64,000 nt of DNA from Bacteroidota bacterium (GTDB lineage Bacteria > Bacteroidota > Bacteroidia > NS11-12g > UBA9320): NCBI GenBank assembly GCA_016124755.1, contig WGNA01000011.1, positions 246,688 through 310,687 on the forward strand, in the 5' to 3' direction. Under the pieces are notes generated by a model that saw only the letters and a list, made by a program, of their open reading frames with translations, made no database searches and was not told the DNA's origin. The translations under genes and the position numbers were made by a program. This document shows, in pieces, positions 3,322 to 32,443 of this stretch (position 1 is its first letter; every line of letters begins with the position of its first letter).

Positions 3322-4386
3322 TTGGGAATAATCCAGATTTTAAATTTAACATTCATGTATAAAAGATTAAAACCACTTGTAGGGATACCGTCCATAGCAT
3401 TAATATGCTTGCTGGTTGCTGTATCAGGATGTGCGATGGATCTTCAACCGCTCCCCGATTCGGTTGAAGCCGAGGTCGACCATGCTATTGAGCGAGGTTT
3501 CGACGGAATAATAGTGTATGTTAATCGACCGGGGAATTCACGACATTACTGTTCCGGCTGGAAGAACCGCGAGAATAAAATTCCGGCTGATTCGAGCACT
3601 TTATTCAAAATTGCGAGCATAAGCAAATTATACATTGCAGCCGCCACAACAATGCTGGTTGCCAACGATCAGTTGTCGTTGGATGACACGCTGTCTGCAC
3701 TAATTCCCGAAGTTTCCGGAAGAATAGAAAATGCAAATCAGATCACTTTGCGATTGTTGTTGCAACACCGGAGCGGGATTCCGGATTTCCTATTTGATCC
3801 GGAATTTAAAAACAGCGATCCGGATGAGGATTACTTAACCACAGCTTCCCTCATTTATGATGAACCTGCAGATTTTCCTCCGGACAAAAAATACAAGTAT
3901 TCAAATACCAATTATTTACTAATCGGAGAAATTCTTGACAGAACTCTGGGGTATTCGCATCACGATTATATCAAACAGAATATATTAATTCCACTCGGTT
4001 TGAAAAATACATACAATGTGTATAGCGATGCCGATTCCAATGCAGTAATGAGTGGTTATTATATCGGGTACAATCGGGATCTGAAATCCGATGATTTTAC
4101 CCGTCCGGGCGGGTCAATGGTTGCTTCAGCTGAAGACGTTGCCATTTTTTTAAGAGCACTGATCGACGGAACTTTATTTACTGAAAAGGAGCAGGCCATT
4201 TATTCCTCGGTTTATGTATATGAACACACCGGCTGGTTGAATGGATACACGAGTATTGCCCGCTATCATAGCGATATGGATGCGGTCGTTGTTCAGTTTG
4301 TGAATACCAGCAGCAACGAGATTTATTGGTTGAAATTGGAACGCGTTTACAACCGGATCGTACGAATTCTCGAAAAGGAAAATTAG
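3322..4386 (+). CDS. Serine hydrolase of the beta-lactamase / class C PBP-like family. The likely true start is M at 3355, which gives a lipoprotein signal LVAVSGC.
   Basis: SxxK motif (FKIASISKLY) and YxN motif (YSNTNY). Paralog of 4963..6000. Confidence 0.7.
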   Translation: MGIIQILNLTFMYKRLKPLVGIPSIALICLLVAVSGCAMDLQPLPDSVEAEVDHAIERGFDGIIVYVNRPGNSRHYCSGWKNRENKIPADSSTLFKIASISKLYIAAATTMLVANDQLSLDDTLSALIPEVSGRIENANQITLRLLLQHRSGIPDFLFDPEFKNSDPDEDYLTTASLIYDEPADFPPDKKYKYSNTNYLLIGEILDRTLGYSHHDYIKQNILIPLGLKNTYNVYSDADSNAVMSGYYIGYNRDLKSDDFTRPGGSMVASAEDVAIFLRALIDGTLFTEKEQAIYSSVYVYEHTGWLNGYTSIARYHSDMDAVVVQFVNTSSNEIYWLKLERVYNRIVRILEKEN

Positions 4387-4393
4387 GACGAAA

Positions 4394-4936
4394 ATGAAAA
4401 ATATACTTTTATCGCTTTTATTCCTGATTCCATTATTTGTGTCTGCCCAACACAAAGAACCAATTCGCAAATTTGGATTTGTATTGAATTCGGGTTTTAA
4501 TGGTGAACTTTATCCGATCAGACTGGTCCCGGGGGTTACGTACACAAAAGGAAAAAATAAAATCGAATTGGGTACAGGATTTCACCCATACCTGAAGCAA
4601 AAACAAAGATTGGTAAGCGGAGAAATGAATTACAAATATTTTCCGAATGGGATGGCTAACAAATTAAATATGTATCTGGTAGGGCGTTTTTCGTATGTTA
4701 ATAACAAAAGAGATACGTATTTCCCCACCACATACAATTATCTTTTCCTTAACGGAGGATATGGTTTTGAGATAAATGCATTCACTGGTGTGTATCTCGG
4801 AACAAATGTGAGTGCAGGCGGTTTTACCTACAGTAAAAATTCAGAAAATCCGTATTTAAGTTATTCTAAAAATAAAATGTTTGATAATTCAGGCTTAAAT
4901 CTGGCTTTTCAGTTTAATATCGGTTACAGACTTTAA
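4394..4936 (+). CDS. Small outer-membrane beta-barrel protein.
   Basis: Signal peptide (LLFLIPLFVSAQ) and alternating aromatic/hydrophilic strands. The C-terminus ends ...IGYRL. Confidence 0.5.
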   Translation: MKNILLSLLFLIPLFVSAQHKEPIRKFGFVLNSGFNGELYPIRLVPGVTYTKGKNKIELGTGFHPYLKQKQRLVSGEMNYKYFPNGMANKLNMYLVGRFSYVNNKRDTYFPTTYNYLFLNGGYGFEINAFTGVYLGTNVSAGGFTYSKNSENPYLSYSKNKMFDNSGLNLAFQFNIGYRL

Positions 4937-4962
4937 TTCAAATAATTTAACAACTATTATTA

Positions 4963-6000
4963 ATGGGGAAAAGAACACAGAAAATTATTCGAATTGTTTT
5001 ATTGGCCGGAACGGTTATCTCAATGTTTTTTGTTCCGTGGATTTTGGTCAAAGCCTGGATAAAGCCCCTCCCGGATACGGTTCAGAAACAATTGGAGGAA
5101 GCGGTTGACCTCGGATTTGAAGGAATTATTGTTTACGTTGATGAAGCCGGGAAACCACCGGCTTTTTATGCGGCAGGTTATCATAACCGGGATGCCAAAA
5201 CACCGGCAGATGCGCATTCATTATTTAAAATAGCCAGCATCGGAAAGCTTTATACAGCCGTTTCCATAACCCGATTGTCGTATTATGGCCGCTTAAATTT
5301 AGATGATAAACTCACGGATTTTTTTCCCGAGTTTTCCCATAGAATCGAATACGCGAATAAAATTACGGTGAGTAATCTGGTACGGCACCGGAGTGGAATT
5401 CCGGATTTCGTGGGCACCCCGGACTATTGGGTTCATCCGAAACAAACAGGTCAGGATCGTCTGGATCTGGTGCTCGACTTGCCGGCGCATTTCGAACCGG
5501 GTGAGAAATATGAATACAGCAACACGAATTATTTATTACTAGCCCGAATTATTGAAAAGGTTACTGGTATAAGTAAGTTTCAATATATACAACAGGAAAT
5601 ATTAAATCCGCTCCATCTGAAAAACACCTTTGGTTCCATAGATGACGTGAACCTTGACGAGGTAATGAGCGGTTATTACGAAGGATATGAAAAGGATTTA
5701 AAGACAGACAACAATGGAGTAATGCTGGCAACTGCCGAAGATCTGGGGAAATTTATCCGGGCGTTAAACAACGGTTCGGTCTTTAAAGATAAAAGAGAAC
5801 AGGAAATTTATTCCACATTATATAAATACGAACACACGGGTTTAATTCCGGGTTATCAGAGTATAGCGAAATATGAAAAAGACCTCGATGCTGTAGTAAT
5901 TCAGTTTACCAACCATACGAACTTTGATGGTTACGAATGGAATTTATCCGAAATTGTTTTTAACAGGATTTTGAAAATAATCCGGAAATCAAAATCTTAA
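4963..6000 (+). CDS. Serine hydrolase of the beta-lactamase family. It is a membrane-anchored paralog of 3322..4386.
   Basis: SxxK motif (FKIASIGKLY) and YSNTNY. An N-terminal TM helix is present. Identity to the upstream paralog by eye is about 45%. Confidence 0.7.
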   Translation: MGKRTQKIIRIVLLAGTVISMFFVPWILVKAWIKPLPDTVQKQLEEAVDLGFEGIIVYVDEAGKPPAFYAAGYHNRDAKTPADAHSLFKIASIGKLYTAVSITRLSYYGRLNLDDKLTDFFPEFSHRIEYANKITVSNLVRHRSGIPDFVGTPDYWVHPKQTGQDRLDLVLDLPAHFEPGEKYEYSNTNYLLLARIIEKVTGISKFQYIQQEILNPLHLKNTFGSIDDVNLDEVMSGYYEGYEKDLKTDNNGVMLATAEDLGKFIRALNNGSVFKDKREQEIYSTLYKYEHTGLIPGYQSIAKYEKDLDAVVIQFTNHTNFDGYEWNLSEIVFNRILKIIRKSKS

Positions 6001-20328: not shown

Positions 20329-21567
20329 CTAATTCCCCGTTGATTCTGCTAAAATTTCTTCAATGTACTTTACAACTTTTTTTTCGGTATCACCTCCATA
20401 ACCGACATTCACTTTCCGAATGATTCCTTTACGGTCGATTAAATAAAGTGTAGGAAAACCATACACATGATAATCCTTTGCAACCGGTTTCCCTTCCAGT
20501 AAAATTTGATATCCGGCTCCGCGCTTCTGTAAAAAATCAGAAAGATTTTTTTCATCATTGTTATCGTATGGGTCAATACCAATAACCACCAAACCCTGAT
20601 CTTTATATTTCTCAGATAGAGCCTGAAGAGCGGGAACAGCCTGCATGCAAGGGGAACACCCTTTATAGAAAAATTCGAGAAGTACAACCTTTCCTTTTAA
20701 TTGATCGAGAGAAACGGAATCTTTCGGATTCATCATTTTCGGCAATTTCCAATATGGAGCAACGGAACTGTCTGCCAACAGGTCTGGTCTTTTGAAGTCG
20801 AAAGGGGAGAGAAATAGGTGATTTGATATGTCATCGATTGCATTTGCGATGGAATCGTTTGGTACATTAAACCGGTAATTTAACAACCTGTAATTTCTGA
20901 ATTCAGAAAAATAAAATCCGGATAATTGTTCGAAGTATTCATTATATTGAATCGGAATAAAGGATTTTTTTTGGATCCAAAATTCATTTGTAACATTAAA
21001 AGTGTCGTGGTTTGTGGAGTACATCGGACAGGAATATTTTATTCTGTAACATTTTACCCCGTTTATTTTTTCTATTCCAATCAATTTAAATCGGGCCTGT
21101 TTGTTTTCTAATTGTTTATCATGCGGTAAAATGTAAGCTGAGTCGTTTGTTACTAATTGAAACAACCGGAGCATGTACAAATCATTGAGAGATGTACAAT
21201 TTTTTTCCCGGTAATTTATTATTTCACCTATGCTGTCTGAAGGGGTATATGTAATTAATATTGAGTCGGAATATACAGCCGCTTTATTTTGATTAGTATC
21301 GATCTGATGGAAACGAAATGGTACGCTGTTGCTTTGTGTTTCTTTTATGAAATCGCAATGGAAACTGTTCTTTACTGTGTCAGACCTTAAGTTAGTGAAG
21401 TGTTGAAACTCCTCGTCATAAGTGCCATTTCTTATTTCCGTGCATTTATTCCAACTCTTTTGAAGAATGGTTTTCGGATTTGGCGCGCAGGAAGCCAAAA
21501 GGGTTACTGTTAGCGCGAAACTCAATGAAATTTTCATAAACTGGCGTTTATTATAGCTGCTGAACAA
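20329..21567 (-). CDS. TlpA-like thiol:disulfide oxidoreductase lipoprotein carrying a ~270-aa N-terminal domain I could not assign to any family.
   Basis: Lipoprotein signal LLASCAP. The C-terminal thioredoxin fold reads FFYKGCSPCMQAVPAL...GFPTLYLID. Tandem paralog of 21609..22865. Confidence 0.65.
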   Translation of the reverse strand: MFSSYNKRQFMKISLSFALTVTLLASCAPNPKTILQKSWNKCTEIRNGTYDEEFQHFTNLRSDTVKNSFHCDFIKETQSNSVPFRFHQIDTNQNKAAVYSDSILITYTPSDSIGEIINYREKNCTSLNDLYMLRLFQLVTNDSAYILPHDKQLENKQARFKLIGIEKINGVKCYRIKYSCPMYSTNHDTFNVTNEFWIQKKSFIPIQYNEYFEQLSGFYFSEFRNYRLLNYRFNVPNDSIANAIDDISNHLFLSPFDFKRPDLLADSSVAPYWKLPKMMNPKDSVSLDQLKGKVVLLEFFYKGCSPCMQAVPALQALSEKYKDQGLVVIGIDPYDNNDEKNLSDFLQKRGAGYQILLEGKPVAKDYHVYGFPTLYLIDRKGIIRKVNVGYGGDTEKKVVKYIEEILAESTGN

Positions 21568-21608: not shown

Positions 21609-22865
21609 CTAATTCACCGGAGATTCCGCTAATATTTCTTCAATGTATTGTTCCAATAATTCGTCAGTCCCATCTCCGAAGCCAACATTCACCTGTCGGA
21701 TGATTCCTTCCCGGTCGATTACATACATCGTGGGATATCCGGAAACGTGATAATTATCTGAAGCTGATTTCCCATCCATCAATATCTGATAACTGGCTCC
21801 GCGTTTTTCAAGAAAATCAGAAAGATTATTGTTTTCATTATTGTCGAACGGATCAATACCAACTACTTCAACACCTTTTTCTTTATAGGCTTCGCTCAGT
21901 TTCTGCAATCCGGGTATCGCTTGCATACACGGGTAACAACCTTTGTAGAAAAAGTCAATCAGAACAATTTTGCCCTTTAATTCCATCAGAGAAAGTGAGT
22001 CGGTAGAATCGCGCAATGTCGGGAGTTTCCAGACAGGTGCTATCGTATCGACAGGCAATAATGTTGGAGGCACGTATGGTTTAAATTCTTCCAGTTTTAC
22101 GTATTCCGGAACCCGGTTTAAAGAAATAGAATCACCCAATCCGGGAATATCAAACTGCGAATTGCGTATGGTTTTAATATTTAATTGGGTCATGGTATCT
22201 TTTTCCATGGTGATTAAATACAACGATGAATATCTCACCGGAATCATCGACTTTTTATCAATCCAATAATCGTTGGTAATGCTCAGAATCTGCATCGCTT
22301 CCGAAGTGTCGGGTTTGGGAGTTTGAATGGTTTGAATCCGGAAACATTTATGATTATTCAGATTGGCCGCTTTTAGGGATTTAATGTTAAACCCTGTATG
22401 GTGATACATCGAATCATCGGGTAACGGTGAAGCGTTTGTTCGAAACACAACATCGTAGAAATTGTAGTTGTGTTTGTATGCATCAATTTTGTCCGACCAT
22501 TTTTCGTTCGACATAATGGTACCCGCACTGTCGGTGGTTTTATAATTTACGAATTCGCTGGAAGTGTACAGAATGTCGCCGCCGTATTTTCCATTAAAAG
22601 TGTAGCTGTAGTGAAACTTCGCCGGATATATCGTGTCGTTTTCAAGTTTTGAAAATATGCAGTCGTATTCCCGCTTTACTGTATCAGTTTGGGTCATATA
22701 TTTTGTAATGTGATCCATGTGATACCTGCCGTTTTCGATGCTCTGACATTTATCCTTAGATATTTTCAGAATTTTTTCCGGTCTGGAAGAGCAGCCGTAT
22801 ACAAGAAGAAATGCCAATGCAAGTTGAATTAATTTTTTCATTGTTATTAAGACTTTCTTAATCAA
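21609..22865 (-). CDS. TlpA-like thiol:disulfide oxidoreductase lipoprotein, paralog of 20329..21567.
   Basis: Signal LVYGCSS. FFYKGCYPCMQAIPGL...GYPTMYVID. The C-terminal domains of the two paralogs are about 65% identical by eye. Confidence 0.65.
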   Translation of the reverse strand: MIKKVLITMKKLIQLALAFLLVYGCSSRPEKILKISKDKCQSIENGRYHMDHITKYMTQTDTVKREYDCIFSKLENDTIYPAKFHYSYTFNGKYGGDILYTSSEFVNYKTTDSAGTIMSNEKWSDKIDAYKHNYNFYDVVFRTNASPLPDDSMYHHTGFNIKSLKAANLNNHKCFRIQTIQTPKPDTSEAMQILSITNDYWIDKKSMIPVRYSSLYLITMEKDTMTQLNIKTIRNSQFDIPGLGDSISLNRVPEYVKLEEFKPYVPPTLLPVDTIAPVWKLPTLRDSTDSLSLMELKGKIVLIDFFYKGCYPCMQAIPGLQKLSEAYKEKGVEVVGIDPFDNNENNNLSDFLEKRGASYQILMDGKSASDNYHVSGYPTMYVIDREGIIRQVNVGFGDGTDELLEQYIEEILAESPVN

Positions 22866-22988: not shown

Positions 22989-23471
22989 ATGCATATTGTT
23001 TCCGCTATCTTCCCGCCAATGAAATGGTTAAATCTCGCCGGACTCACACTACAGTTTTTAGCGTTCTGGTTCGCTGCACCGGAATTGCTGGGAGAATCAA
23101 CCATGAAGAGATTGGAAAACGGACTGATTCGATTGGTGTCTTCGTTACCCGTTATTCTGATTGCCGGAGGTGCCATTGTATTTGGTGTTTTTATGGCAAT
23201 TGCTGGCGTGAGGTTCGGACTGGAAGCCGGCAGGGAAGGCGCGGAGAACCTTAATCTTATGTTTGTGATTCTGGGAGTTTCCGTTATTTCCACCTTGTAT
23301 TTCGCATTGTTTTCCGCCAAAACCACACGCTGGATGAAACGTAAATATGCAACTCCATTAATTAATAAACTCATCGCATCTGAGCAATTCCGAAAAACAG
23401 CATTACAGCTTGGAGCGGTTTTGTTTTCCGTGGGTTTTGTATTGCAGTTTGTGGTTATGCTATTGAGTTAA
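22989..23471 (+). CDS. Small 4-TM membrane protein.
   Basis: Four hydrophobic helices. It is the first gene of a tightly spaced three-gene unit. Confidence 0.4.
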   Translation: MHIVSAIFPPMKWLNLAGLTLQFLAFWFAAPELLGESTMKRLENGLIRLVSSLPVILIAGGAIVFGVFMAIAGVRFGLEAGREGAENLNLMFVILGVSVISTLYFALFSAKTTRWMKRKYATPLINKLIASEQFRKTALQLGAVLFSVGFVLQFVVMLLS

Positions 23472-23480
23472 TACAACGTT

Positions 23481-23993
23481 TTGGACCAATTGGAAATAAA
23501 TAAAACGCAAACCGAACTCTGGAAACGAATTCAGGACTTCGATCCGGATGATCCGGATTCGGAATTTTCCTTTTCCGATCGGCTTTGTCGGGAAAACGAC
23601 TGGAAATTAGAATTTGCCATTCGGGCGATTGATGAATATAAAAAATTCATGTTTCTTATTTGTTTGGGTGAAGGGCCATTAACTCCATCCGATGAAATTG
23701 ATCAGGTCTGGCACCTGCATTTGCTTTATACCGAATCGTACTGGAACGAGTGGTGCCGGAATACGTTGGGCAGAGAAATACATCACGGCCCAACAACCGG
23801 TGGAACGGAATCACGGGAGAACTACACGAATCTTTATAATAAAACACTCGATTTGTATGAAAATGTTTTTAAAACAAAACCGCCGTCAGACATCTGGCCG
23901 CCCGACGAAAAACGATTCAGGGATATACATTTTACCCGAGTAAATCGACACAAATACTGGTTAATTCCTAAATTATTCCGGCGAAAGCAATGA
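23481..23993 (+). CDS. Hypothetical protein, possibly DUF1399/GRDP-like.
   Basis: Motif EIDQVWHLHLLYTESYW. The ATGA overlap with the next gene indicates translational coupling. The family assignment comes from memory only. Confidence 0.35.
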   Translation: MDQLEINKTQTELWKRIQDFDPDDPDSEFSFSDRLCRENDWKLEFAIRAIDEYKKFMFLICLGEGPLTPSDEIDQVWHLHLLYTESYWNEWCRNTLGREIHHGPTTGGTESRENYTNLYNKTLDLYENVFKTKPPSDIWPPDEKRFRDIHFTRVNRHKYWLIPKLFRRKQ

Positions 23994-24811
23994 ACATGAA
24001 TATTTCGAAATCCGATTATTTGCTGGCAGATTATCTTCCTGCCGAAGTTCTCATTTTAATACAAGAAGATGATTTTAAACTCGGCGAATTGCTACGATAT
24101 ACCCTGCTCGATTTACATCTGAAAAAGGTTCTTCTGATTAAGCCGAAATACAAAACCAGCAGGGGAAAAACCAGAACCTATTTGTATGTGCATTCCGGTC
24201 CGGCAATTGAAAATTACAGCTATCTGCCGCACGAAGGTATTTTTATTAAACCCTTTCGCATCAACCGGATTAAAATACAGGTGAAGCAATTGGCAAAAAT
24301 TGTTCGGCGGGATTCGGGAGGTCCGTTGAGTTATGTAAAAAGAATGCTCTGGAAAAGTGAAAAATTATCCAATTGTTTTGTGCGCAATCCTTTGACCTGG
24401 TTTGTAGGAAAGGTTAAACTGAAACCCAATGGGAAATTAATTGCAGACCGGCTTTCTGCAGAATTGGATGAATTAAACAATATAATTCCGGAATTACTGG
24501 AAACAGATCCACAGTCTGCTGCCATGATTTTAAGATCAATTGGTTCAAACATGTATCTGCTTTCGAATGTGGATTGGAGCAAGGTTCAGGAACTCAAAGA
24601 ATATTTTAAGCCAGAAGAGTTTCAAGATTTTACGGCTGCTGCCGGTTGTGGTGGATGCGCTATTTTCACTGATGTGGGTTCAGATGTTTTTAGTCATGGT
24701 GATTTCGGCGGATTTGATGCCGGCGGGGATTTTGGTTGTGGTTCGTCTTGCAGTGGCTGCAGCGGCTGTGGAGGATGCGGTGGTTGTGGAGGATGTGGTG
24801 GTTGCAGTTAA
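23990..24811 (+). CDS. Soluble protein ending in a Gly/Cys-rich low-complexity tail: ...GCGSSCSGCSGCGGCGGCGGCGGCS.
   Basis: The ORF is translationally coupled to the upstream gene. The C-terminal (GCGG)n repeat is encoded by a ggatgtggtggttgtgg repeat at 24720-24808. Confidence 0.45.
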   Translation: MNMNISKSDYLLADYLPAEVLILIQEDDFKLGELLRYTLLDLHLKKVLLIKPKYKTSRGKTRTYLYVHSGPAIENYSYLPHEGIFIKPFRINRIKIQVKQLAKIVRRDSGGPLSYVKRMLWKSEKLSNCFVRNPLTWFVGKVKLKPNGKLIADRLSAELDELNNIIPELLETDPQSAAMILRSIGSNMYLLSNVDWSKVQELKEYFKPEEFQDFTAAAGCGGCAIFTDVGSDVFSHGDFGGFDAGGDFGCGSSCSGCSGCGGCGGCGGCGGCS

Positions 24812-24884
24812 AAGCATTTTAATAAGAGTCGGATTTTTATCCGTGCTTTTTCAGTAAACCTTATCTTGCACCCAAACAAAACGC

Positions 24885-26054
24885 ATGAAATATTTTAAAG
24901 GAGAATATCTTTTTGATGGCCGGGAATTTAAGAAAGATGCAGTCTTAGTGACAGAGGACGATGGTACTACCGTTTCGATATTAAACACAAATGATTGTGC
25001 GGATGAAAATATTCAATCGTATAATGGAATCATCTGTCCGGGCTTTATTAATACGCATTGCCATTTGGAGCTGAGTCACATGCGGGGAATGCTCAAAGAA
25101 AAAACCGGACTCATTGAATTTATAAAAGGGGTTCTATCGAAAAGAGAAGCATCGGCAGAAGTAATTTCTCAGGCGATTGAAGATTGCGATCGGGAAATGT
25201 ATGAAAACGGAATTGTGGCGGTTGGCGATATTTCAAATACGACCGATACATTTCCGCAAAAGGCTAAAAGTTTAATTCATTATCACACCTTTATTGAGGT
25301 ATTTGATCTGGATCCCGAAAAAGCCGGAACTATGATTCAACAAGGAAAACAGAATGCCGGTGAGCTTAACAAACTCAGACTTTCGCATTCCATTGTACCG
25401 CACGCTCCTTATACGGTTTCGCCTGAATTATTTGCATTAATTAATGAATTTAACGACGAGAGAAAATCGCTTTCATCGATGCATAATCAGGAGACTCCGC
25501 AAGAAAACGAATTTTTTATTTCCGGAACCGGTGCGTTTGCCGATTTCTATCGCGACTGGGGAATGGACATTTCTTTTTTTCAGCCAACCGGAGAAAAATC
25601 GCTGCCTTCGGTAATTCCGCACATGAGTAGTAAAGGCAAAACCCTTTTGGTGCACAACACCTTTTCTCAGATCGACGACATCGAAATGGCAACGGATCAT
25701 TTTGATGAAGTTTTTTTGTGTACGAATCCGAATGCGAATTTGTATATCGAAGACCGTTTGCCGAAATACGAGAACTTTCTGGAGACAGATGCGATCGTTA
25801 CATTGGGAACCGACAGCATTGCTTCCAACTGGCAACTTTCGATTTTAGAAGAAATAAAAACCATCGACAAATATTTTCCGGAGATTGGTTTGCAAACATT
25901 GCTAACGTGGGCTACGTCGAACGGCGCAAGGGCTTTGGAAATAGATGATTGGGCCGGAAGTTTCGAACCGGGAAAAAAGCCGGGAGTTCTGTTGATCGGA
26001 AATGTTGATGATCTTAAAACTAATAAATCCACATTCGTTAAACGTCTTTTATGA
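24885..26054 (+). CDS. Metal-dependent amidohydrolase of the deaminase/chlorohydrolase-like superfamily.
   Basis: HxH motif INTHCHLELSHM, later His and Asp ligands (LVHNT, GTDS), and a TIM-barrel-typical length. Confidence 0.7.
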   Translation: MKYFKGEYLFDGREFKKDAVLVTEDDGTTVSILNTNDCADENIQSYNGIICPGFINTHCHLELSHMRGMLKEKTGLIEFIKGVLSKREASAEVISQAIEDCDREMYENGIVAVGDISNTTDTFPQKAKSLIHYHTFIEVFDLDPEKAGTMIQQGKQNAGELNKLRLSHSIVPHAPYTVSPELFALINEFNDERKSLSSMHNQETPQENEFFISGTGAFADFYRDWGMDISFFQPTGEKSLPSVIPHMSSKGKTLLVHNTFSQIDDIEMATDHFDEVFLCTNPNANLYIEDRLPKYENFLETDAIVTLGTDSIASNWQLSILEEIKTIDKYFPEIGLQTLLTWATSNGARALEIDDWAGSFEPGKKPGVLLIGNVDDLKTNKSTFVKRLL

Positions 26055-27487
26055 TTAATTCGGAATACGGAATTCAGGTCAAAAAAATATTTACTATTCA
26101 TCTGATTTTCTGTCTGGCTTTGGTTGGGGTAAATTTATTATTAGAATACACAGGACTAATATTTACCGAGGTTGATGGGGAGCTGAGGATCAATAGATTC
26201 GTACAGCAAATAATAGCGTTTGTGACCTACGCTATACTTTGGATTTCCCTGTTGATTACCGGAGATAAGAAGGTGAAAATTGGGTCGATGGTGGCATTGG
26301 TGTTATCTCTACTCAGTGTGGCTTTTCGCTATTCGTTACCTATTCAGAAAATGATTCCGGAAGGTGCAAGAATGTTTATCGGCATTGCCATGTTTTTATC
26401 TGTTTTTGTGGTGTTCGGATTTTTAGTATTCGGCAAAAAAGGTTTGGGGATGATTGTTCCGGCATTTATTATTTACGGATTGGTTAATCTCACATTTTAT
26501 TTCAAACCCCTTTATCGATGGATATCGGATTCCATGAATATGGATGAAAGTTGGTTTTCTTTTTTAATTATAAAATTTTATCAAACTGAGAATTCCTGGC
26601 GCGAGGTGGATATTCTGGAAATCGTTTTTGATTCGGGATTGAGTTTGCTGATTCTTTTTGTATTTGTGTCGTTTTATCTGGCGCTGCGATCCGGAAATAG
26701 TGTGCTAAAGGAATATGTATGGCCGAGGGTTCCGTTTGTTCAAAATAGGTTTCGGTGGTCGGTTTGGTTTCTTATGAGCCGTATGCTTATCGGCACTATG
26801 ATGTTGGGTATTTTATTCCGGAAACTCATGCCGGATTCTTCGTATTCTTTTGAAATGGTTCAGCCGCATAAAACCTTTTTCGATTATTTTTTAATTGCAA
26901 CCATGTTTTTTGCGCTGATCTTTTATGCATTTTATTTTCGAAACGGAGTGACTTTATTCCACGTAAGAAATAGAAGAACTCCCGGTGTTTTGTACTTTTT
27001 TCTGTATCTGCCTTTTGTACATATTATCGCCTGGATTATTTCCCTTTTCTTAAAGAAGAAAGAACGCGGTGAGGCAGAATCAATAGAGTCTTGGCTTGAT
27101 TTGCAGCAACGGACGTATGAAACATCGAACCGCAATTTATGGTTTAAATTTCTGTTGGTTTTGGCCGGAATAATAAACGTTGTTCGCTTTATGTTCTCGG
27201 ATGAAAGCGGAACTAATTTCCTGATCGGACTTTCATTAATGATTATAAATTTCGTATTAATATTAGTCTATATTCAATACGAAAAAATCATGTGGTGGAT
27301 CGTGGGAAGTCAGGTTCTTATTTATTTTGTTGCGTTCGCCTTACCCGATTTTCAGGTTGCGTGGATTCCGTCTGTTGCGATTCTGAATTCAATAATTATG
27401 TACCCACTGCTGCATTTTGATAAAATGAAATTGGGTGATACAGAGGTGGAAGAATCTGAATCAGAAGTTGTGATGGAAGAAGGGTGA
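26051..27487 (+). CDS. Polytopic membrane protein with at least 10 TM helices. Function unknown.
   Basis: ATGA overlap with the amidohydrolase gene. Highly hydrophobic throughout. Confidence 0.5.
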   Translation: MINSEYGIQVKKIFTIHLIFCLALVGVNLLLEYTGLIFTEVDGELRINRFVQQIIAFVTYAILWISLLITGDKKVKIGSMVALVLSLLSVAFRYSLPIQKMIPEGARMFIGIAMFLSVFVVFGFLVFGKKGLGMIVPAFIIYGLVNLTFYFKPLYRWISDSMNMDESWFSFLIIKFYQTENSWREVDILEIVFDSGLSLLILFVFVSFYLALRSGNSVLKEYVWPRVPFVQNRFRWSVWFLMSRMLIGTMMLGILFRKLMPDSSYSFEMVQPHKTFFDYFLIATMFFALIFYAFYFRNGVTLFHVRNRRTPGVLYFFLYLPFVHIIAWIISLFLKKKERGEAESIESWLDLQQRTYETSNRNLWFKFLLVLAGIINVVRFMFSDESGTNFLIGLSLMIINFVLILVYIQYEKIMWWIVGSQVLIYFVAFALPDFQVAWIPSVAILNSIIMYPLLHFDKMKLGDTEVEESESEVVMEEG

Positions 27488-29073
27488 AGCACGTATCTGC
27501 TCAATTCTTACATTTGCCCGCTTTTGTCGTATTACCCATGAAGCCGCACAAATCATTTCGACCCTGTTGCCTTTTAATCGCAACCTTTTTATTACTAATG
27601 TCTAATTCCGGAAATGTGAAAGCACAAATGTTGCTCGACACCGGAAACATTTTTAATGATGTAACTTCTATAATTAATGCAATGCCCGGAATTGGCGGTG
27701 ATGATTTTCACATGCCGACCGAACGACAACAGGAAATCTGGGAAAACACATTAGAAACCTTTTTCGATGGTAATTTTAATGATGCTGCCGATTCTGCCGA
27801 TCTAATTGATTATACTCTTACACAGTATTACGATAATTCTGTGAGCCCGAATGCAACGTATTATTTATTCCAGAATACAGGTACAAATTACTGGGGAACG
27901 TATATCTGTAATTTCGATTATTGTCGGCCGTTGGTGGTTCAGGCGCCGCATCCCAAATTTGATTTTAACACCGGAAAACAGGCGCTACATGTATTTCGGG
28001 AAGTAGAGGCATTTTTTTATTGTATGGCCGGAACGCACCGCTGTAATCAGTCGATTTACAGCACGTGCGACGGAACAACAGATGTGTGCGGAGCTGATGA
28101 GGATTTTCGTATTTCGGATATGGCGCATAAAGACAGTACCTTGTTTCATCTGGCAACGAGATCGATATATAACCGGTATTCGGGAAGTTATTTTTTGCAA
28201 TTGCACGGTTTCACAAAAGGCGCTTCCGACCCGTATGTAATTCTCAGTAACGGAACCCGCGACACACCGACATTAGATTATATAGAAACACTGGTTGATG
28301 AATTATATATTGAAGATACGGTGCTCACTTTTAAAGTTGTGCATTGGGATCAGAATTGGGATAAACAGGCCGGCTTGGTTAATACGCAGGGAAGAATGAT
28401 CAACGGAAGTTCGGATCCGTGCGACCAGAATCCGTCATCTGCAAGTGGTCGTTTCATTCACATGGAGCAGGAGAAGACAAGATTGCGGGCCGATATCTCG
28501 GGCTGGACAATTGTGGCCAATGCGGTGGCAAGTACGTTTCCGTGTGACGCACTTCCGGTTCAATGGCTGGGAGTTGATATAAAAGGAGACGAACATCAGC
28601 GTGAATTAATTTGGCAAACTGCCTCCGAACACAATTCTGATTATTTCGAAATTCAATATTCTAATGATGGAAAAAATTGGATTAAATCAGATCGAATAAT
28701 GGCAGCGGGTAATTCCGAATCCGTCCGTGAATATGTTTTTACGGATTTGCGGTTTGCGAATTCGGTAGTTTATTACCGGATAAAACAAGTTGATTTTAAC
28801 GGAGAGTTCATCTGGTCGGGATATGTGATGTTTAATCCGGGAAATAAAATTATTTCTATTTATCCGAATCCGGCAAAGAATGAAATTCAGGTTTCGGGTA
28901 AAATATCGGGAAATGAAAAATGGGTAATCCGGAATATTTCGGGTCAGGAGGAAATGAGCGGGGAATTAAATTCCGGAAGTGTAATTAATATTTCTCAGAT
29001 TAAACCGGGATTTTATTGGTTGGAAGTGGTGGATGGGTACAGATCAACAGTTCAAAAGATAGTTATTAATTAA
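27484..29073 (+). CDS. Secreted protein with a T9SS type A C-terminal sorting domain. The likely start is ATG at 27538, which gives a signal peptide.
   Basis: The C-terminus IYPNPAKNEIQVSGK...GFYWLEVVDGYRSTVQKIVIN matches the Por secretion tail pattern. Confidence 0.65.
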   Translation: MKHVSAQFLHLPAFVVLPMKPHKSFRPCCLLIATFLLLMSNSGNVKAQMLLDTGNIFNDVTSIINAMPGIGGDDFHMPTERQQEIWENTLETFFDGNFNDAADSADLIDYTLTQYYDNSVSPNATYYLFQNTGTNYWGTYICNFDYCRPLVVQAPHPKFDFNTGKQALHVFREVEAFFYCMAGTHRCNQSIYSTCDGTTDVCGADEDFRISDMAHKDSTLFHLATRSIYNRYSGSYFLQLHGFTKGASDPYVILSNGTRDTPTLDYIETLVDELYIEDTVLTFKVVHWDQNWDKQAGLVNTQGRMINGSSDPCDQNPSSASGRFIHMEQEKTRLRADISGWTIVANAVASTFPCDALPVQWLGVDIKGDEHQRELIWQTASEHNSDYFEIQYSNDGKNWIKSDRIMAAGNSESVREYVFTDLRFANSVVYYRIKQVDFNGEFIWSGYVMFNPGNKIISIYPNPAKNEIQVSGKISGNEKWVIRNISGQEEMSGELNSGSVINISQIKPGFYWLEVVDGYRSTVQKIVIN

Positions 29074-29515
29074 TCCTGTTATTTCCGGAAGTAACATTAT
29101 CCTTAATCCACATTTTACAATAATGCCGGATTTCATTTCTCACCTTTCTGAATTTTTCCGGTTTTAATTCGGGGTTACCGGAGTATTTGGAAGGGTCGCG
29201 AAAATTGTGATGGAAATTTTCGGTTCCGGGTAAGTACGGACAAACTTCCCGGGCATTATCACAGACGGTAATTACATAATCGAATTGGATGTTTTTGTAT
29301 TCATCGATCACATTGGAAGTATGGTGTGAAATGTCGATTCCGTCTTCCAGCATGGTTTGAACCGCATCCGGATTTAATCCGTGAGCTTCGATTCCGGCGC
29401 TGAAAACTTCAACCCGGTCTTTTCCGAAAAATCGGAGATAGGCTTCCGCCATCTGGCTGCGGCAACTGTTGCCGGTGCACAGAACTAATATTTTCTTCAT
29501 AAGCAGTTCAGACAA
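29066..29515 (-). CDS. arsC: Arsenate reductase ArsC of the LMW-PTPase family (thioredoxin-coupled).
   Basis: CTGNSCRSQMAE P-loop near the N-terminus. It lies in a cluster with arsR. Confidence 0.8.
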   Translation of the reverse strand: MSELLMKKILVLCTGNSCRSQMAEAYLRFFGKDRVEVFSAGIEAHGLNPDAVQTMLEDGIDISHHTSNVIDEYKNIQFDYVITVCDNAREVCPYLPGTENFHHNFRDPSKYSGNPELKPEKFRKVRNEIRHYCKMWIKDNVTSGNNRIN

Positions 29516-29637
29516 AAAGCCAGATAATATTGATGATGCAGAATTTGGGATCGAACCCCCAGATTAATTGCAGAATCAACAATGAAGTGGTAATAATGAT
29601 GGCTTTTTTGTACCGATTAAAAAAATGTGTAAGTATT

Positions 29638-30129
29638 TCAACAGCAGACTTCATTGGGAGAGCAGCAAGTTGTTTTGGGTGTAAGGTCTGAGAGTTTTAA
29701 TTTTTGTTTTTCAGCAGGAATTCCGCATTTGTCTTTTGCCGGGCAATCCGTAAAAAGATTCAGCAGATTAAATTGATCATTAGTAAAAGCAACACCGAAT
29801 CGACCGATAGTACCGGATTGATATTCAAATTCAACCTCCGGATCTGAGTCTCCGAAAATTTCGTCGGCCTTTTTAATTATTTCTAAAAGTTTGGAAGGTT
29901 TAAGACGATGGTCGGTGTCACCGGCAACCCAAATTTGAAATATAATGGATTGTGTTTTTTTAACCGTTCCTCCACAATCAATCACATGTTTGGAAACCAG
30001 TCCGGCTTCGGTGATGTGAAAATGAGCGGGAACCAAAGACGAGTCGGGGAGAACAAATGTTAATTCGTTCAGGTGGCTCAGATGATTTTTAAATTTAGAT
30101 AGCAGCATTTTAATTTGAATTAGCAGCAA
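29638..30129 (-). CDS. ars-cluster hypothetical protein with a Cys-rich C-terminus (TTCCSPNEVCC), possibly DUF6428-like.
   Basis: Overlaps the arsR stop. Position between arsR and arsC. A Cys cluster sits at the C-terminus. Confidence 0.45.
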   Translation of the reverse strand: MLLIQIKMLLSKFKNHLSHLNELTFVLPDSSLVPAHFHITEAGLVSKHVIDCGGTVKKTQSIIFQIWVAGDTDHRLKPSKLLEIIKKADEIFGDSDPEVEFEYQSGTIGRFGVAFTNDQFNLLNLFTDCPAKDKCGIPAEKQKLKLSDLTPKTTCCSPNEVCC

Positions 30130-30452
30130 TTATTTTTTAGACATTCGGCATGACTTGCAACGCCGGAAAGAAATTTCAGAAGGTCATCAACGGCTCCCTG
30201 ATTTATACAATAGTTAATGGCATTGCCTTCAATATTGCCTTTAATAAAACCGGCCAGTTTCAACTCCTTGAGGTGTTGTGAAACGGTGGGTTGAGCCAGC
30301 GGCAATTCGTTAACAATGTCGCCGCAAACACAGGCGTTGGTTTTCATCAGATATTCCAGAATGGCAATGCGGGCAGGATGTGCAAGCGCTTTGGCCAGAC
30401 CCGAAATCTGATTGTGTTTTTCTGAAAAATGTTCCGCTTTTGAAAGTCCCAT
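30120..30452 (-). CDS. arsR: ArsR/SmtB-family metalloregulator.
   Basis: HTH region PARIAILEYL...CVCGDIVNEL...VSQHLKELK. The CVC motif lies at the As(III)-sensing position. Confidence 0.8.
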   Translation of the reverse strand: MGLSKAEHFSEKHNQISGLAKALAHPARIAILEYLMKTNACVCGDIVNELPLAQPTVSQHLKELKLAGFIKGNIEGNAINYCINQGAVDDLLKFLSGVASHAECLKNNCC

Positions 30453-31069: not shown

Positions 31070-32443
31070 TTGCAGGAATTAAAAAGCCAGATTCAACAAT
31101 TCACTTCGCCGGTTACTTTCGAATCACTCCGGTCGTTTATTACAGAACTTACACTTGAAAACCTCCGTTTCAATGAACACATTCCGGAACCGGAAGCTGC
31201 CGGGGATTACGGAAGAAATATTATAACACTTGAACCTTTTGAATGCGTTCTTATTCATTGGCCGGCCGGGGTTTCAAGCGCAATTCATTTACACGAGGGA
31301 CTTTTTGGTTATGTCTGGGTTCTGGAAGGAGAACTCGACAATGTCTTTTATAAATTTCAGGATGGTAAACTCATCGAATATTCCGTAGCCCGATATGGCA
31401 AAAACGGATTGATTCCGGAACCCGACGGAGTGATTCACAAACTCGCCAATAACACAAACACGCGCGCGATAACACTGCATTTTTATTACCCGGCGATTGA
31501 AAGTTTCGAGGGGATGCAGTTGTTCAATGTAGAAAAGCGAGCCATTGGTAGTCTGAGTGATAATGCCAATACCGCCAGTTGGCAGGATGAGGACGGACAT
31601 TTTTCAGAAGTAAAAACCAATGCATTCGACTTCGTTCCGTTTGATGTGCATCACCAACCCAAAACCCACGTAATGATTCCGGTTATTCCGAAACCGACAT
31701 CGGAAAGAATCCGGGAAATGAACGACGAATACTTTAGTGAGCAGGCACACAAATACGACTTTTCGGATTTCAACCAGCCCCGTAGAAAAGCTTATATCGA
31801 TGGCATTGACCGGGAAATTGCCCGTTTGCTTCAGGAGTCGGAACCCATAAAAAAAGTAATGGATATCGCAGTGGGTACTGGAAGACGTGCTCTTCACATA
31901 CGGGAAATCAGCGAACTCAATTATTCCATAACCGGGGTCGACATCAGTGAAGAGATGTGTGCCATTGCGGGTGAACGGGGCATTAGGGCAATTCACCACG
32001 ACTGGGTAAATGCTGAAATTCCGGATGAAAAGGACTTCGATGCCGTAACGTTCTTATACGCATTCGGACATATTGCCGACATAGAATCGAGAGAGCGTGC
32101 ATTGCGAAAAGTTCATCAGGTTTTAAAACCGGGCGGGATGATTTTCTTTGATGTCTTTAGTCTGAACAACCAAAACGAATGGGGACCTCAGGCTTCAAAG
32201 GCATTTGACCAACGCAATCTCGGGGAAAACGGATTCGACCGGGGCGATGTGTTCTATAAAAAAACGGAATTCAACAGCATCGCTTTTCTACATTATTTCA
32301 CCCATGAAGAAATTGAAGAATTACTCCATAAAACCGGATTTGTAGAGATAGAAATCCGTTCGATTGGTTATGCGAAAAATCCGGGACAGTGGGTGGATAG
32401 TGATAATGAGGGGAACTTTTTTGTGGCGGCGAGGAAGGTTTGA
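31070..32443 (+). CDS. Fusion protein with an N-terminal cupin domain and a C-terminal class I SAM-dependent methyltransferase (TTG start).
   Basis: Cupin-like HWPAGVSSAIHLHEGLFGYVWVLEGE. Methyltransferase motif I VMDIAVGTGRRAL and post-I VDISEEM...LKPGGMIFFDVF. Confidence 0.6.
   Translation: MQELKSQIQQFTSPVTFESLRSFITELTLENLRFNEHIPEPEAAGDYGRNIITLEPFECVLIHWPAGVSSAIHLHEGLFGYVWVLEGELDNVFYKFQDGKLIEYSVARYGKNGLIPEPDGVIHKLANNTNTRAITLHFYYPAIESFEGMQLFNVEKRAIGSLSDNANTASWQDEDGHFSEVKTNAFDFVPFDVHHQPKTHVMIPVIPKPTSERIREMNDEYFSEQAHKYDFSDFNQPRRKAYIDGIDREIARLLQESEPIKKVMDIAVGTGRRALHIREISELNYSITGVDISEEMCAIAGERGIRAIHHDWVNAEIPDEKDFDAVTFLYAFGHIADIESRERALRKVHQVLKPGGMIFFDVFSLNNQNEWGPQASKAFDQRNLGENGFDRGDVFYKKTEFNSIAFLHYFTHEEIEELLHKTGFVEIEIRSIGYAKNPGQWVDSDNEGNFFVAARKV

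What the first reader, a model, noticed from the sequence alone, without database searches (positions are those of the whole stretch)
22989..24811. Tightly coupled three-gene unit ending in a protein with a (GCGG)n Gly/Cys tail
A 4-TM membrane protein, a protein with a D.VWH.H.L motif (possibly DUF1399/GRDP-like) and a 273-aa soluble protein are translationally coupled by an ATGA overlap. The last protein terminates in ...GDFGCGSSCSGCSGCGGCGGCGGCGGCS. This periodic Cys array suggests metal or iron-sulfur cluster binding, or a substrate for thiol modification. Downstream and co-directional are an amidohydrolase, a membrane protein of at least 10 TM helices and a T9SS-secreted protein. I cannot name a described system with this composition.
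Basis: partly seen in the sequence, partly recalled or inferred. Interest (0 to 1): 0.6.

Follow-up and report, generated by a model that had tools for sequence, protein, structure and literature searches.

The report
Conserved gene pair with cysteine-glycine tail
Two of the three flagged genes form a widespread gene pair of unknown function, a small conserved helical protein plus a carrier protein ending in a Cys-Gly tail, and the same domain-plus-tail combination recurs as fused proteins in other bacteria, phages and plants.

Summary
The ORFs, the ATGA overlap and the Gly/Cys tail are real. The unit is two genes, not three.

- **Gene B** (23481-23993) belongs to Pfam PF27765 (UCP032817-like) and is a distant relative of plant DUF1399/GRDP.

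**Conservation.** In 77 of 80 other loci, almost all Bacteroidota, a C homolog lies directly after B, usually overlapping by 1, 4 or 13 nt. Most complete copies (68 of 76) end in a Gly/Cys run; a few have a much weaker one. The membrane protein A and the downstream amidohydrolase, multi-TM and T9SS genes are never conserved with the pair.

**Fusions.** In cyanobacteria, Ralstonia, Rhizobium, Brucella and phage contigs, B is fused to a Gly/Cys tail, via TIGR04222, via two TM helices, or directly. Plant GRDP1/2 have the same domain-plus-tail architecture.

**Interpretation.** B and the tail work together; confidence in this is high. B keeps an invariant Asp/His/Cys/His set and has no solved structural relative. 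I infer it is a metal-dependent enzyme or partner acting on the tail cysteines in the cytoplasm. This mechanism is untested.

**Novelty.** This is a new, split variant of a known but biochemically uncharacterised kind.

The parts
23481..23993 (+). Gene B: about 165-170 aa all-helical protein, Pfam PF27765 (UCP032817-like), distant DUF1399/GRDP-like. The start is uncertain: TTG 23481, TTG 23490, or ATA 23496 as used by NCBI.
23646..23792 (+). Conserved core of B, from F56 to P104. It includes PSDEIDQVWHLHLLYTESYWNEWC...IHHGP. The residues invariant across phyla are F56, D74, W77, H78, Y87, C92, H102 and P104. This is the candidate metal or catalytic site.
   Evidence: Alignment A2 of 32 Bacteroidota proteins, alignment A3 of 14 domains from 5 phyla plus phage contigs, and coordinates.
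23990..23993 (+). ATGA: the start codon of C overlaps the stop codon of B (translational coupling).
   Evidence: The same kind of overlap is seen in 57 of 80 related loci: 24 overlap by 4 nt, 20 by 1 nt and 13 by 13 nt.
23990..24811 (+). Gene C: 273-aa protein with no TM segment and no Pfam or NCBIfam family.
   Evidence: A profile search found 728 cluster representatives at E<=1e-3.
24017..24619 (+). Globular domain of C (residues 10-210): two N-terminal helices and a beta-hairpin, followed by a helical bundle.
24620..24733 (+). Disordered linker of C (residues 211-248). It contains a first C-x-x-C pair (C220, C223) and a conserved acidic Phe-Asp motif (F234, D235).
   Evidence: pLDDT is below 50. 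F234 and D235 are invariant in A1. The FD motif is present in 70 of 76 homologs.
24734..24808 (+). Gly/Cys/Ser tail of C (residues 249-273): GCGSSCSGCSGCGGCGGCGGCGGCS.
   Evidence: Over 76 homologs, the last 25 residues are on average G 40%, S 21%, C 21% and D 9.5%.
24767..24804 (+). 18-bp tandem duplication (2.1 copies, 95% match) inside the tail-coding region. It accounts for the unusually long Cys run in this copy.
   Evidence: Other homologs have runs of 2-6 Cys at this spacing, and two have none.
24830..24852 (+). Weak terminator-like hairpin followed by a T-run, after C and before the next operon.
   Evidence: This is a consensus match only.
22989..23471 (+). Gene A: small membrane protein next to B. 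Listed only because the finding included it; it is not part of the conserved module.
   Evidence: It has 77 homologs. Three homolog contexts lack B and C. No A homolog is present in 80 B-C loci.

Best explanation
B and C form a self-contained two-protein module in the cytoplasm.

C is a carrier. It has a globular, possibly GOLPH3-like and membrane-peripheral domain. That domain displays a flexible acidic linker and a terminal run of cysteines at C-x-x-C spacing.

B is a small helical domain with an invariant Asp/His/Cys/His set. It acts on, or together with, that tail. The most likely role is a metal-dependent enzyme that covalently modifies or loads the tail cysteines. The product would be a thiol-derived metal-binding or redox-active appendage. 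MNIO enzymes are proposed to play a comparable role for the Cys-rich tails of some TIGR04222 proteins.

Shown here: the obligate B-to-tail association, the translational coupling, and the absence of any other conserved partner. Inferred: that B is catalytic, the chemistry involved, the cytoplasmic location, and any role for metal.

Confidence in the functional coupling of B and the tail is about 0.9. The 0.4 given as the confidence of this explanation is for the enzyme-modifies-tail mechanism.
For: 1. **Gene order.** A C homolog lies directly downstream of B on the same strand in 77 of 80 loci from named genomes, almost all Bacteroidota, and 57 of these overlap by 1, 4 or 13 nt. Starting from C, B lies directly upstream in 3 of 3 loci, with unrelated flanks.
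2. **No third partner.** Clustering all flanking ORFs recovers only B (80 of 80) and C (76 of 80). The next family is seen in 10 loci or fewer.
3. **Fusions.** B is fused to a TIGR04222 membrane domain plus a Gly/Cys tail in Allocoleopsis (TIGR04222 E 2.9e-47), Gloeothece, Planktothrix and Ralstonia. In Rhizobium it is fused to two TM helices plus a tail. In Brucella it is fused directly to the tail ...CAGCGGQGGGGGGCSHCSAC. In Nonomuraea the tail is CSQCYQGC.
4. **Phage contigs.** IMG/VR contigs carry B fused to two TM helices plus a tail, or B followed by a separate ORF encoding a TM helix and a tail.
5. **Plants.** GRDP1/2 combine DUF1399 with a C-terminal Gly-rich domain containing interspersed Cys, consensus [CG]GGGCGG[GC] (PMC4299439).
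6. **Conservation pattern.** B is far more conserved than C: 52-63% identity to the window protein against 29-35%. Eight residues are invariant across 5 phyla plus phage, including D74, H78, C92 and H102. This pattern fits an enzyme and its carrier.
7. **Same compartment.** B and C have no TM segment and, read by eye, no N-terminal signal-like sequence. The fusions have an even number of hydrophobic segments between B and the tail, which puts both on the same side of the membrane. This rests on a crude hydropathy count.
8. **Precedent.** Cys-rich TIGR04222 tails are proposed MNIO substrates, and a third of genomes with TIGR04222 lack MNIO (PMC12452194). No MNIO is annotated next to the three B-TIGR04222 fusions whose records carry annotation.
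Against: - No enzymatic activity is known for any DUF1399 or PF27765 protein.
- B has no detectable similarity to any solved enzyme, so catalysis is inferred only from conserved residues.
- The Asp/His/Cys/His set could equally be a structural or metal-binding site.
- Fusion and translational coupling imply 1:1 stoichiometry. That fits a stable complex or a shared metal site at least as well as a turnover enzyme.
- No model coordinates were available to check whether the invariant residues cluster in space.
- Topology rests on hydropathy alone. The MNIO study predicts periplasmic tails for its TIGR04222 examples.
Confidence: 0.4

Rival explanations
1. There is no covalent modification. The C-x-x-C tail is itself a metal-thiolate or Fe-S binding element, like a metallothionein or a metallochaperone tail. 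B is a stoichiometric partner whose Asp/His/Cys/His site shares, receives or senses the metal.
For: - The tail has 3-7 Cys at C-x-x-C spacing with Gly spacers.
- 1:1 coupling and cis fusions, including the soluble 182-aa Brucella protein, fit a complex.
- The invariant D/H/C/H residues are classic metal ligands.
- A TPMT-family S-methyltransferase overlaps the Gloeothece fusion gene. This is a single case.
Against: - The 80 loci show no conserved link to metal transporters, regulators or resistance genes.
- The ars-like genes in the window lie 4-6 kb away and are not conserved with the pair.
- The very high conservation of B, including many aromatic residues, is more than a simple metal site would need.
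Confidence: 0.3
2. The tail is a membrane-targeting or material-forming element: a cysteine string that is lipidated, or a disulfide-crosslinking low-complexity segment. B would be the acylating or crosslinking factor.
For: - The globular domain of C resembles the peripheral membrane adaptor GOLPH3/Vps74.
- In other lineages the carrier is an integral membrane protein or a TM hairpin.
- C92, a His and D74 could form a Cys-His-Asp triad.
Against: - Lineages whose protein is already TM-anchored still keep the tail, so anchoring cannot be its main role.
- The Brucella protein has neither a TM segment nor a carrier domain.
- As far as I know, no bacterial S-acylation system of this type is known.
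Confidence: 0.12
3. C is a RiPP-like precursor. The Gly/Cys/Ser tail is heterocyclised, cleaved off and exported as a small peptide, as with microcin B17, methanobactin or bufferin.
For: The tail composition resembles TOMM and MNIO core peptides (and my own knowledge of McbA).
Against: - No YcaO, MNIO, radical-SAM enzyme, protease or exporter lies within 5 kb in the window.
- No such gene is conserved in the 80 loci.
- The 'leader' would be a 210-residue folded domain.
- The fused forms keep the tail on a membrane protein.
Confidence: 0.05
4. One reading: a three-gene operon (A-B-C) that works with the downstream amidohydrolase, multi-TM protein and T9SS protein.
For: The genes run in the same direction with short gaps in this window.
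Against: - A homologs sit in unrelated contexts.
- None of the 80 B-C loci has A, the amidohydrolase, the multi-TM protein or the T9SS protein.
- The three downstream genes overlap each other and form a separate unit after a 73-nt gap containing a hairpin.
Confidence: 0.04
5. The tail is a non-functional product of repeat slippage or of low-complexity DNA.
For: The tail-coding DNA contains an 18-bp tandem duplication, and the tail length varies between homologs.
Against: - The tail is present in homologs of only about 30% identity from hundreds of genomes.
- The window copy mixes Cys codons (TGC, TGT) and Gly codons (GGA, GGT, GGC).
- The motif recurs in fusions in other phyla, in phage contigs and in plants.
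Confidence: 0.01

Closest known systems
Plant glycine-rich domain proteins GRDP1/GRDP2 (DUF1399, Pfam PF07173)
   Same: They combine a DUF1399-type domain with a C-terminal Gly-rich segment containing interspersed Cys, consensus [CG]GGGCGG[GC]. B gives consistent sub-threshold PF07173 matches over the D.VWH.H motif region. NCBI names some B homologs 'glycine-rich domain-containing protein'.
   Different: The plant proteins are about 790-aa single chains with additional regions. Here the domain and the tail lie on two separate proteins. B scores below the PF07173 threshold and is filed under PF07173's neighbour PF27765. No biochemical function is known for either.
TIGR04222 domain-containing membrane proteins, putative MNIO (DUF692) substrates
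   Same: Both have a C-terminal disordered Ser/Gly/Cys tail on a larger protein. In cyanobacteria and Ralstonia, B is fused to bona fide TIGR04222 proteins. Profile comparison aligns only the tails.
   Different: C has no TM segment and no match to the TIGR04222 HMM. Profile-profile comparison of the globular parts is not significant. No MNIO gene is nearby. The tail is predicted to be cytoplasmic here, whereas the published examples are predicted to be periplasmic.
GOLPH3 / Vps74 (GPP34 family, PF05719)
   Different: There is no PF05719 match, no hhalign signal and no Foldseek hit. The residues of the PI4P pocket were not examined. As far as I know, GPP34 proteins are not described with Cys/Gly tails.
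Cys/Gly/Ser-rich RiPP cores (microcin B17 type TOMMs; methanobactin and bufferin type MNIO products)
   Same: The composition and periodicity of the tail resemble these cores, and a dedicated conserved partner gene lies next to it.
   Different: No YcaO, MNIO, protease or exporter gene is present. The 'precursor' is a folded 273-aa protein. The partner B belongs to an unrelated, uncharacterised family.
Metallothioneins and Cys-rich metallochaperone tails
   Same: A dense array of cysteines at C-x-x-C spacing in a disordered segment.
   Different: Here the array is a short C-terminal appendage, always paired with a specific helical domain. Metal binding was not tested.

Membership tests
Pfam PF27765 (UCP032817-like), for B | Match to the family HMM | tested here: met
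   Precomputed Pfam hits list PF27765.1 for all 120 listed homologs, including the 99%-identical protein P0121, and for the gene upstream of C in three genomes. The local Pfam scan did not return this family for B.
DUF1399 / GRDP-like (PF07173), for B | HMM score above the gathering threshold (22.7 bits) | tested here: not met
   The window protein scores 15.2 bits, E 0.036, over residues 41-88. Of 32 relatives, 20 match below threshold, best E 0.0022. B is a distant relative, not a member.
DUF1399 / GRDP-like (PF07173), for B | Association with a C-terminal Gly-rich, Cys-interspersed segment, as in plant GRDP1/2 | tested here: met
   The association holds in trans with C in 77 of 80 loci. It holds in cis in cyanobacteria, Proteobacteria, Nonomuraea (Cys-rich tail) and phage contigs. 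The plant motif is taken from PMC4299439.
TIGR04222, for C | Match to the TIGR04222 HMM | tested here: not met
   No hit for C or for any of 25 family members, even at E<=10. Profile-profile comparison of the globular parts gives probability below 1%.
TIGR04222, for C | Integral membrane protein with several TM segments | tested here: not met
   The highest 19-residue hydropathy average in C is 1.08, and the median over homologs is 1.09. The scan finds no TM-like segment.
TIGR04222, for C | C-terminal low-complexity Ser/Gly/Cys tail | tested here: met
   The tails align with probability 98%.
TIGR04222, for C | Frequent genetic association with an MNIO (DUF692) enzyme | tested here: not met
   No MNIO among the genes within about 5 kb, and no such family recurs in the 80 loci.
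GPP34 / GOLPH3 (PF05719), for C | Match to the family HMM or profile | tested here: not met
   No PF05719 hit for C or for 25 relatives. hhalign against the GOLPH3 sequence is not significant.
GPP34 / GOLPH3 (PF05719), for C | GOLPH3 fold | tested here: inconclusive
GPP34 / GOLPH3 (PF05719), for C | Phosphoinositide-binding basic pocket and membrane association | not testable with these tools
   No model coordinates were accessible. This needs a structure superposition and lipid-binding assays.
RiPP biosynthetic gene cluster (TOMM or MNIO type) | Known class-defining modifying enzyme (YcaO, MNIO or radical SAM), plus a protease or exporter, next to the precursor | tested here: not met
Anti-phage defence systems (PADLOC) | Match to a known defence protein model | tested here: not met
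   There are no meaningful hits for A, B or C.

The most novel reading that the evidence does not exclude
The PF27765/DUF1399 domain is a new class of metalloenzyme with an unsolved fold. It post-translationally transforms cysteines of genetically attached or adjacent (Gly-Cys)n tails on proteins. This would be a third route alongside YcaO and MNIO chemistry. It would be conserved from Bacteroidota, cyanobacteria and Proteobacteria through large phages to plant GRDPs. The product would be a protein-borne chelator or redox group on the cytoplasmic face of the membrane.
Probability: 0.25. Interest if true: 0.85.

Novelty: new variant of a known kind. Interest (0 to 1): 0.62.

Why it matters
- **Two uncharacterised families get one testable hypothesis.** B belongs to PF27765/DUF1399. 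C belongs to a family of about 700 clusters with no Pfam or NCBIfam model. The hypothesis is that the helical domain works on a Cys-Gly tail.
- **The pairing is very widespread.** It persists whether the parts are split or fused, through different carriers (GOLPH3-like, TIGR04222, a bare TM hairpin, or none). It is also found in phage contigs and in plant GRDP stress and development proteins, whose biochemical function is still unknown.
- **A bacterial system would be easy to work with.** A two-gene bacterial version offers a simple experimental handle on that plant question.
- **It bears on an open question from the MNIO survey.** That survey asks what happens to the Cys-rich tails of TIGR04222 proteins that have no MNIO partner.
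- **If B is catalytic, it would be new chemistry.** It would add a new enzyme class for protein cysteine modification.

Tried and rejected
- **TIGR04222 membership of C.** I suspected this from memory of the N-terminal motif. It fails: no HMM hit, and hhalign of the globular parts is not significant. Only the tails align.
- **Weak bridge via DUF2207_C.** PF20990 matches below threshold in 3 of 25 C relatives and in two TIGR04222 fusions. This is too weak to use.
- **The search for related loci with the C alignment.** The B alignment was used instead.
- **afdb50 fold search.** The library was unavailable.
- **PDB searches with both profiles.** Nothing meaningful.
- **Defence-system and phage-family searches.** PADLOC gave nothing. 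PHROGs gave only an unknown-function family over the C-terminal third of C, including the tail, plus weak spanin- and holin-like hits for one phage ORF that look compositional.
- **Literature search with the peptide strings.** It returned only DNA matches.
- **Searches for UCP032817 and PF27765.** They found no paper.
- **Context-based functional hints.** These include the thioredoxin-like neighbours, the ars-like genes and the pyridine-nucleotide disulfide oxidoreductase next to the pair in Flavobacterium litorale. They were rejected because no flanking family recurs.
Full report
**1. What is in the window**

The three ORFs are as described.
- A is at 22989-23471 (160 aa) and has hydrophobic TM-like segments.
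- B is at 23481-23993 (170 aa from a TTG start).
- C is at 23990-24811 (273 aa).

The stop codon of B and the start codon of C share ATGA at 23990-23993. A and B are separated by 9 nt.

B has no ATG start. NCBI's protein from the same MAG ('MAG: Bacteroidetes bacterium', locus tag GC181_09360) starts at the ATA at 23496. One automatic gene caller skipped B altogether.

C ends in GCGSSCSGCSGCGGCGGCGGCGGCS. Its cysteines lie at residues 129, 220, 223, 250, 254, 257, 260, 263, 266, 269 and 272. This is the only Gly-rich C-x-x-C run in any reading frame of the window, and the window holds only one copy each of B and C.

**2. The tail is conserved**

C has 350 word-indexed homologs. A profile search finds 728 cluster representatives at E<=1e-3. 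These proteins are about 255-275 aa. The named ones are Bacteroidota (Cytophagales and Flavobacteriales), all carry 'hypothetical' or generic labels, and none has a Pfam domain.

Identity to the window protein is only 29-35%. Even so, the terminal GC-[SG]GCGGC block is invariant in 25 of 25 aligned sequences.

In 76 complete homologs taken from genome loci:
- the last 25 residues average G 40%, S 21%, C 21% and D 9.5%;
- 68 have at least three Cys at C-x-x-C spacing;
- 70 keep an upstream Phe-Asp motif.

The window copy contains an 18-bp tandem duplication (24767-24804). Its run of seven Cys is the longest seen; most others have 2-6 and two have none. Tail length therefore drifts, probably by slippage, but its presence is under selection.

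**3. The unit is two genes, not three**

Starting from C, three distant homologs were examined: Ekhidna, Flavobacterium litorale and a Cyclobacteriaceae MAG. In each, a 166-176-aa PF27765 gene lies directly upstream and overlaps C, and the flanks are unrelated.

Starting from B, a scan of one genome per species found at least 576 loci. Of the best 80:
- 77 have a C homolog directly downstream on the same strand;
- the overlap is 4 nt in 24 loci, 1 nt in 20 and 13 nt in 13;
- the three exceptions are a contig end (L084), a locus where RuvB follows (L048) and a fusion (L060).

Clustering all flanking ORFs recovers only B (80 of 80) and C (76 of 80). Nothing else is seen in more than 10 loci.

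A has 77 homologs of its own. Three contexts that were looked up have no B or C. No A homolog occurs in the 80 loci.

The window's amidohydrolase, multi-TM protein and T9SS-tail protein occur in 0 of 80 loci. They overlap one another by 4 nt each and form a separate operon, after a 73-nt gap that contains a weak hairpin.

No MNIO, YcaO, radical-SAM, protease or exporter gene lies within about 5 kb.

**4. What B is**

All listed homologs carry Pfam PF27765 (UCP032817-like), and NCBI names some of them 'glycine-rich domain-containing protein'. The window protein and 20 of 32 relatives also match plant-type DUF1399/GRDP-like (PF07173) below threshold, over the D.VWH.H region.

B is strongly conserved, at 52-63% identity to the window protein, with about 40 invariant positions.

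I aligned 14 B domains from Bacteroidota, Cyanobacteria, Alpha- and Betaproteobacteria, Actinomycetota, Deinococcota and phage contigs. Eight residues are invariant: F56, D74, W77, H78, Y87, C92, H102 and P104. H101 is nearly invariant. An Asp/His/Cys/His(His) set like this is typical of a metal or catalytic site. That reading is an inference.

**5. What C is**

AlphaFold models residues 10-210 with confidence (pLDDT mostly above 90). Residues 214-273 come out disordered.

This match is not reproduced by other methods:
- Foldseek finds nothing significant.
- Pfam PF05719 does not match.
- hhalign against the GOLPH3 sequence is not significant.

I therefore treat 'GOLPH3-like fold' as a moderate-confidence resemblance, not as family membership.

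C is not a TIGR04222 member either. It gives no HMM hit, has no TM segment, and shows no profile-profile signal outside the tail.

**6. The recurring link between the B domain and a Gly/Cys tail**

The one non-Bacteroidota locus among the 80 is from the cyanobacterium Allocoleopsis. It encodes a single 485-aa protein: a B domain, then a bona fide TIGR04222 membrane domain (E 2.9e-47), then ...SGCGGGGCGGCGGCGGCGG.

A tblastn search of plasmids found further architectures:
- the same B-TIGR04222-tail fusion in Gloeothece, Planktothrix and Ralstonia;
- B, two TM helices and a Gly/Cys tail, with no TIGR04222 domain, in Rhizobium;
- B joined directly to ...CAGCGGQGGGGGGCSHCSACKDDG in a 182-aa Brucella protein;
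- B followed by CSQCYQGC in Nonomuraea;
- B, TM helices and a Gly/Ser/Asp-rich segment in Deinococcus;
- one tail-less copy, in Stanieria.

IMG/VR contigs with genuine phage neighbours, namely a tRNA-His guanylyltransferase and a DNA transfer protein, carry two arrangements. In one, B is fused to two TM helices, a Ser-rich linker and ...SGCGSSGCGGCGGCGGCGS. In the other, B is followed by a separate ORF encoding a TM helix and a tail.

Plant GRDP1/2 combine an N-terminal DUF1399 domain with a C-terminal Gly-rich domain containing interspersed Cys, consensus [CG]GGGCGG[GC] (PMC4299439).

The carrier between the domain and the tail is therefore interchangeable. It can be GOLPH3-like, TIGR04222, a TM hairpin, or absent. 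The constant feature is the pairing of the B domain with the tail.

**7. Location**

B and C have no TM segment and, read by eye, no N-terminal signal-like sequence.

In the fusions, a crude hydropathy count gives two or four hydrophobic segments between B and the tail. In the split phage version, the single N-terminal TM helix is followed by a basic stretch. All of this places the tail on the same side of the membrane as B, presumably the cytoplasm. This is an inference. It differs from the periplasmic prediction made for MNIO-associated TIGR04222 proteins.

**8. Mechanism**

The association is firmly established; the chemistry is not.

The closest described precedent is the proposal that Cys-rich TIGR04222 tails are substrates of MNIO enzymes. 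[quoted passage not shown] No MNIO is annotated next to the three B-TIGR04222 fusions whose records carry annotation. The same paper does not mention GRDP or DUF1399.

My preferred reading is that B is a metal-dependent enzyme, or at least a metal-site partner, that modifies or loads the tail cysteines. I put this at about 0.4.

The main rival is an unmodified metal-thiolate or Fe-S tail working with B as a stoichiometric partner, at about 0.3. The 1:1 coupling and the fusions fit that rival at least as well.

The remaining alternatives are less likely:
- a role in lipidation or crosslinking;
- a cleaved RiPP-like peptide;
- a defence system (no PADLOC hits);
- a slippage artefact.

**9. Novelty**

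Pfam and NCBI already recognise the B family. The Gly/Cys tail is documented for plant GRDPs and for TIGR04222 proteins.

I found no description of the following:
- the C family;
- the conserved, translationally coupled B-C pair in Bacteroidota;
- the generalisation that the DUF1399-like domain is tied to a Gly/Cys tail across bacteria, phages and plants.

I rate this as a new variant of a known but biochemically uncharacterised kind.

Noticed in passing
window 20329-21567 (-) and 21609-22865 (-): Two tandem paralogous proteins of about 415 aa. Each has a C-terminal AhpC/TSA-Redoxin domain with a CxxC motif, and an unassigned N-terminal region of about 270 residues. They are transcribed divergently from the A-B-C genes and are not conserved with the pair (a homolog of one of them in 1 of 80 loci).
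   Followed up: partly
window 29066-30452 (-) and 31070-32443 (+): An ars-like operon of overlapping genes: ArsR, DUF6428 and an LMW-PTP/ArsC-type protein. Next to it is a 457-aa fusion of a cysteine-dioxygenase-type cupin (PF05995, E 4.7e-7) with a SAM methyltransferase, which is an unusual domain combination.
   Followed up: partly
window 24885-29073 (+): Amidohydrolase (closest to, but far below the cut-off of, aminofutalosine deaminase), a 478-aa multi-TM protein with no family, and a T9SS-sorted protein. Their start and stop codons overlap (ATGA at 26051, GTGA at 27484). They look like a separate operon of unknown role.
   Followed up: partly
window 23481-23500: Gene B has no ATG start. 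The candidates are TTG 23481, TTG 23490 and ATA 23496, and NCBI's protein begins at the ATA. The gene caller used for a Logan assembly of the same organism left B uncalled. B-family genes may therefore be under-annotated.
   Followed up: partly
L100-L106 (IMG/VR contigs), e.g. L102 2995-3939 and L105 2953-4061: Phage contigs of 16-374 kb carry B fused to two TM helices, a poly-Ser linker and a Gly/Cys tail, or B plus one or two separate ORFs that each encode a TM helix and a tail. The neighbours are phage genes (Thg1-like tRNA-His guanylyltransferase, DNA transfer protein).
   Followed up: partly
L090 5307-5972 (Gloeothece verrucosa PCC 7822 plasmid): A thiopurine S-methyltransferase (TPMT/TehB-like) gene overlaps the 3' end of the gene for the B-TIGR04222-tail fusion. 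In Stanieria a methyltransferase gene also lies shortly downstream of a tail-less B gene. This hints at S-methylation, but only from these two cases.
   Followed up: no
L051 1184-2906 and L069 4481-6754: Two loci, a Chitinophagales MAG and a Bacteroidia MAG, carry two C paralogs after a single B gene.
   Followed up: no
L091 (Ralstonia wenshanensis plasmid) 3860-5428: The gene for the B-TIGR04222-tail fusion sits inside a type VI secretion gene cluster, between tagF/OmpA-family genes and tssA.
   Followed up: no
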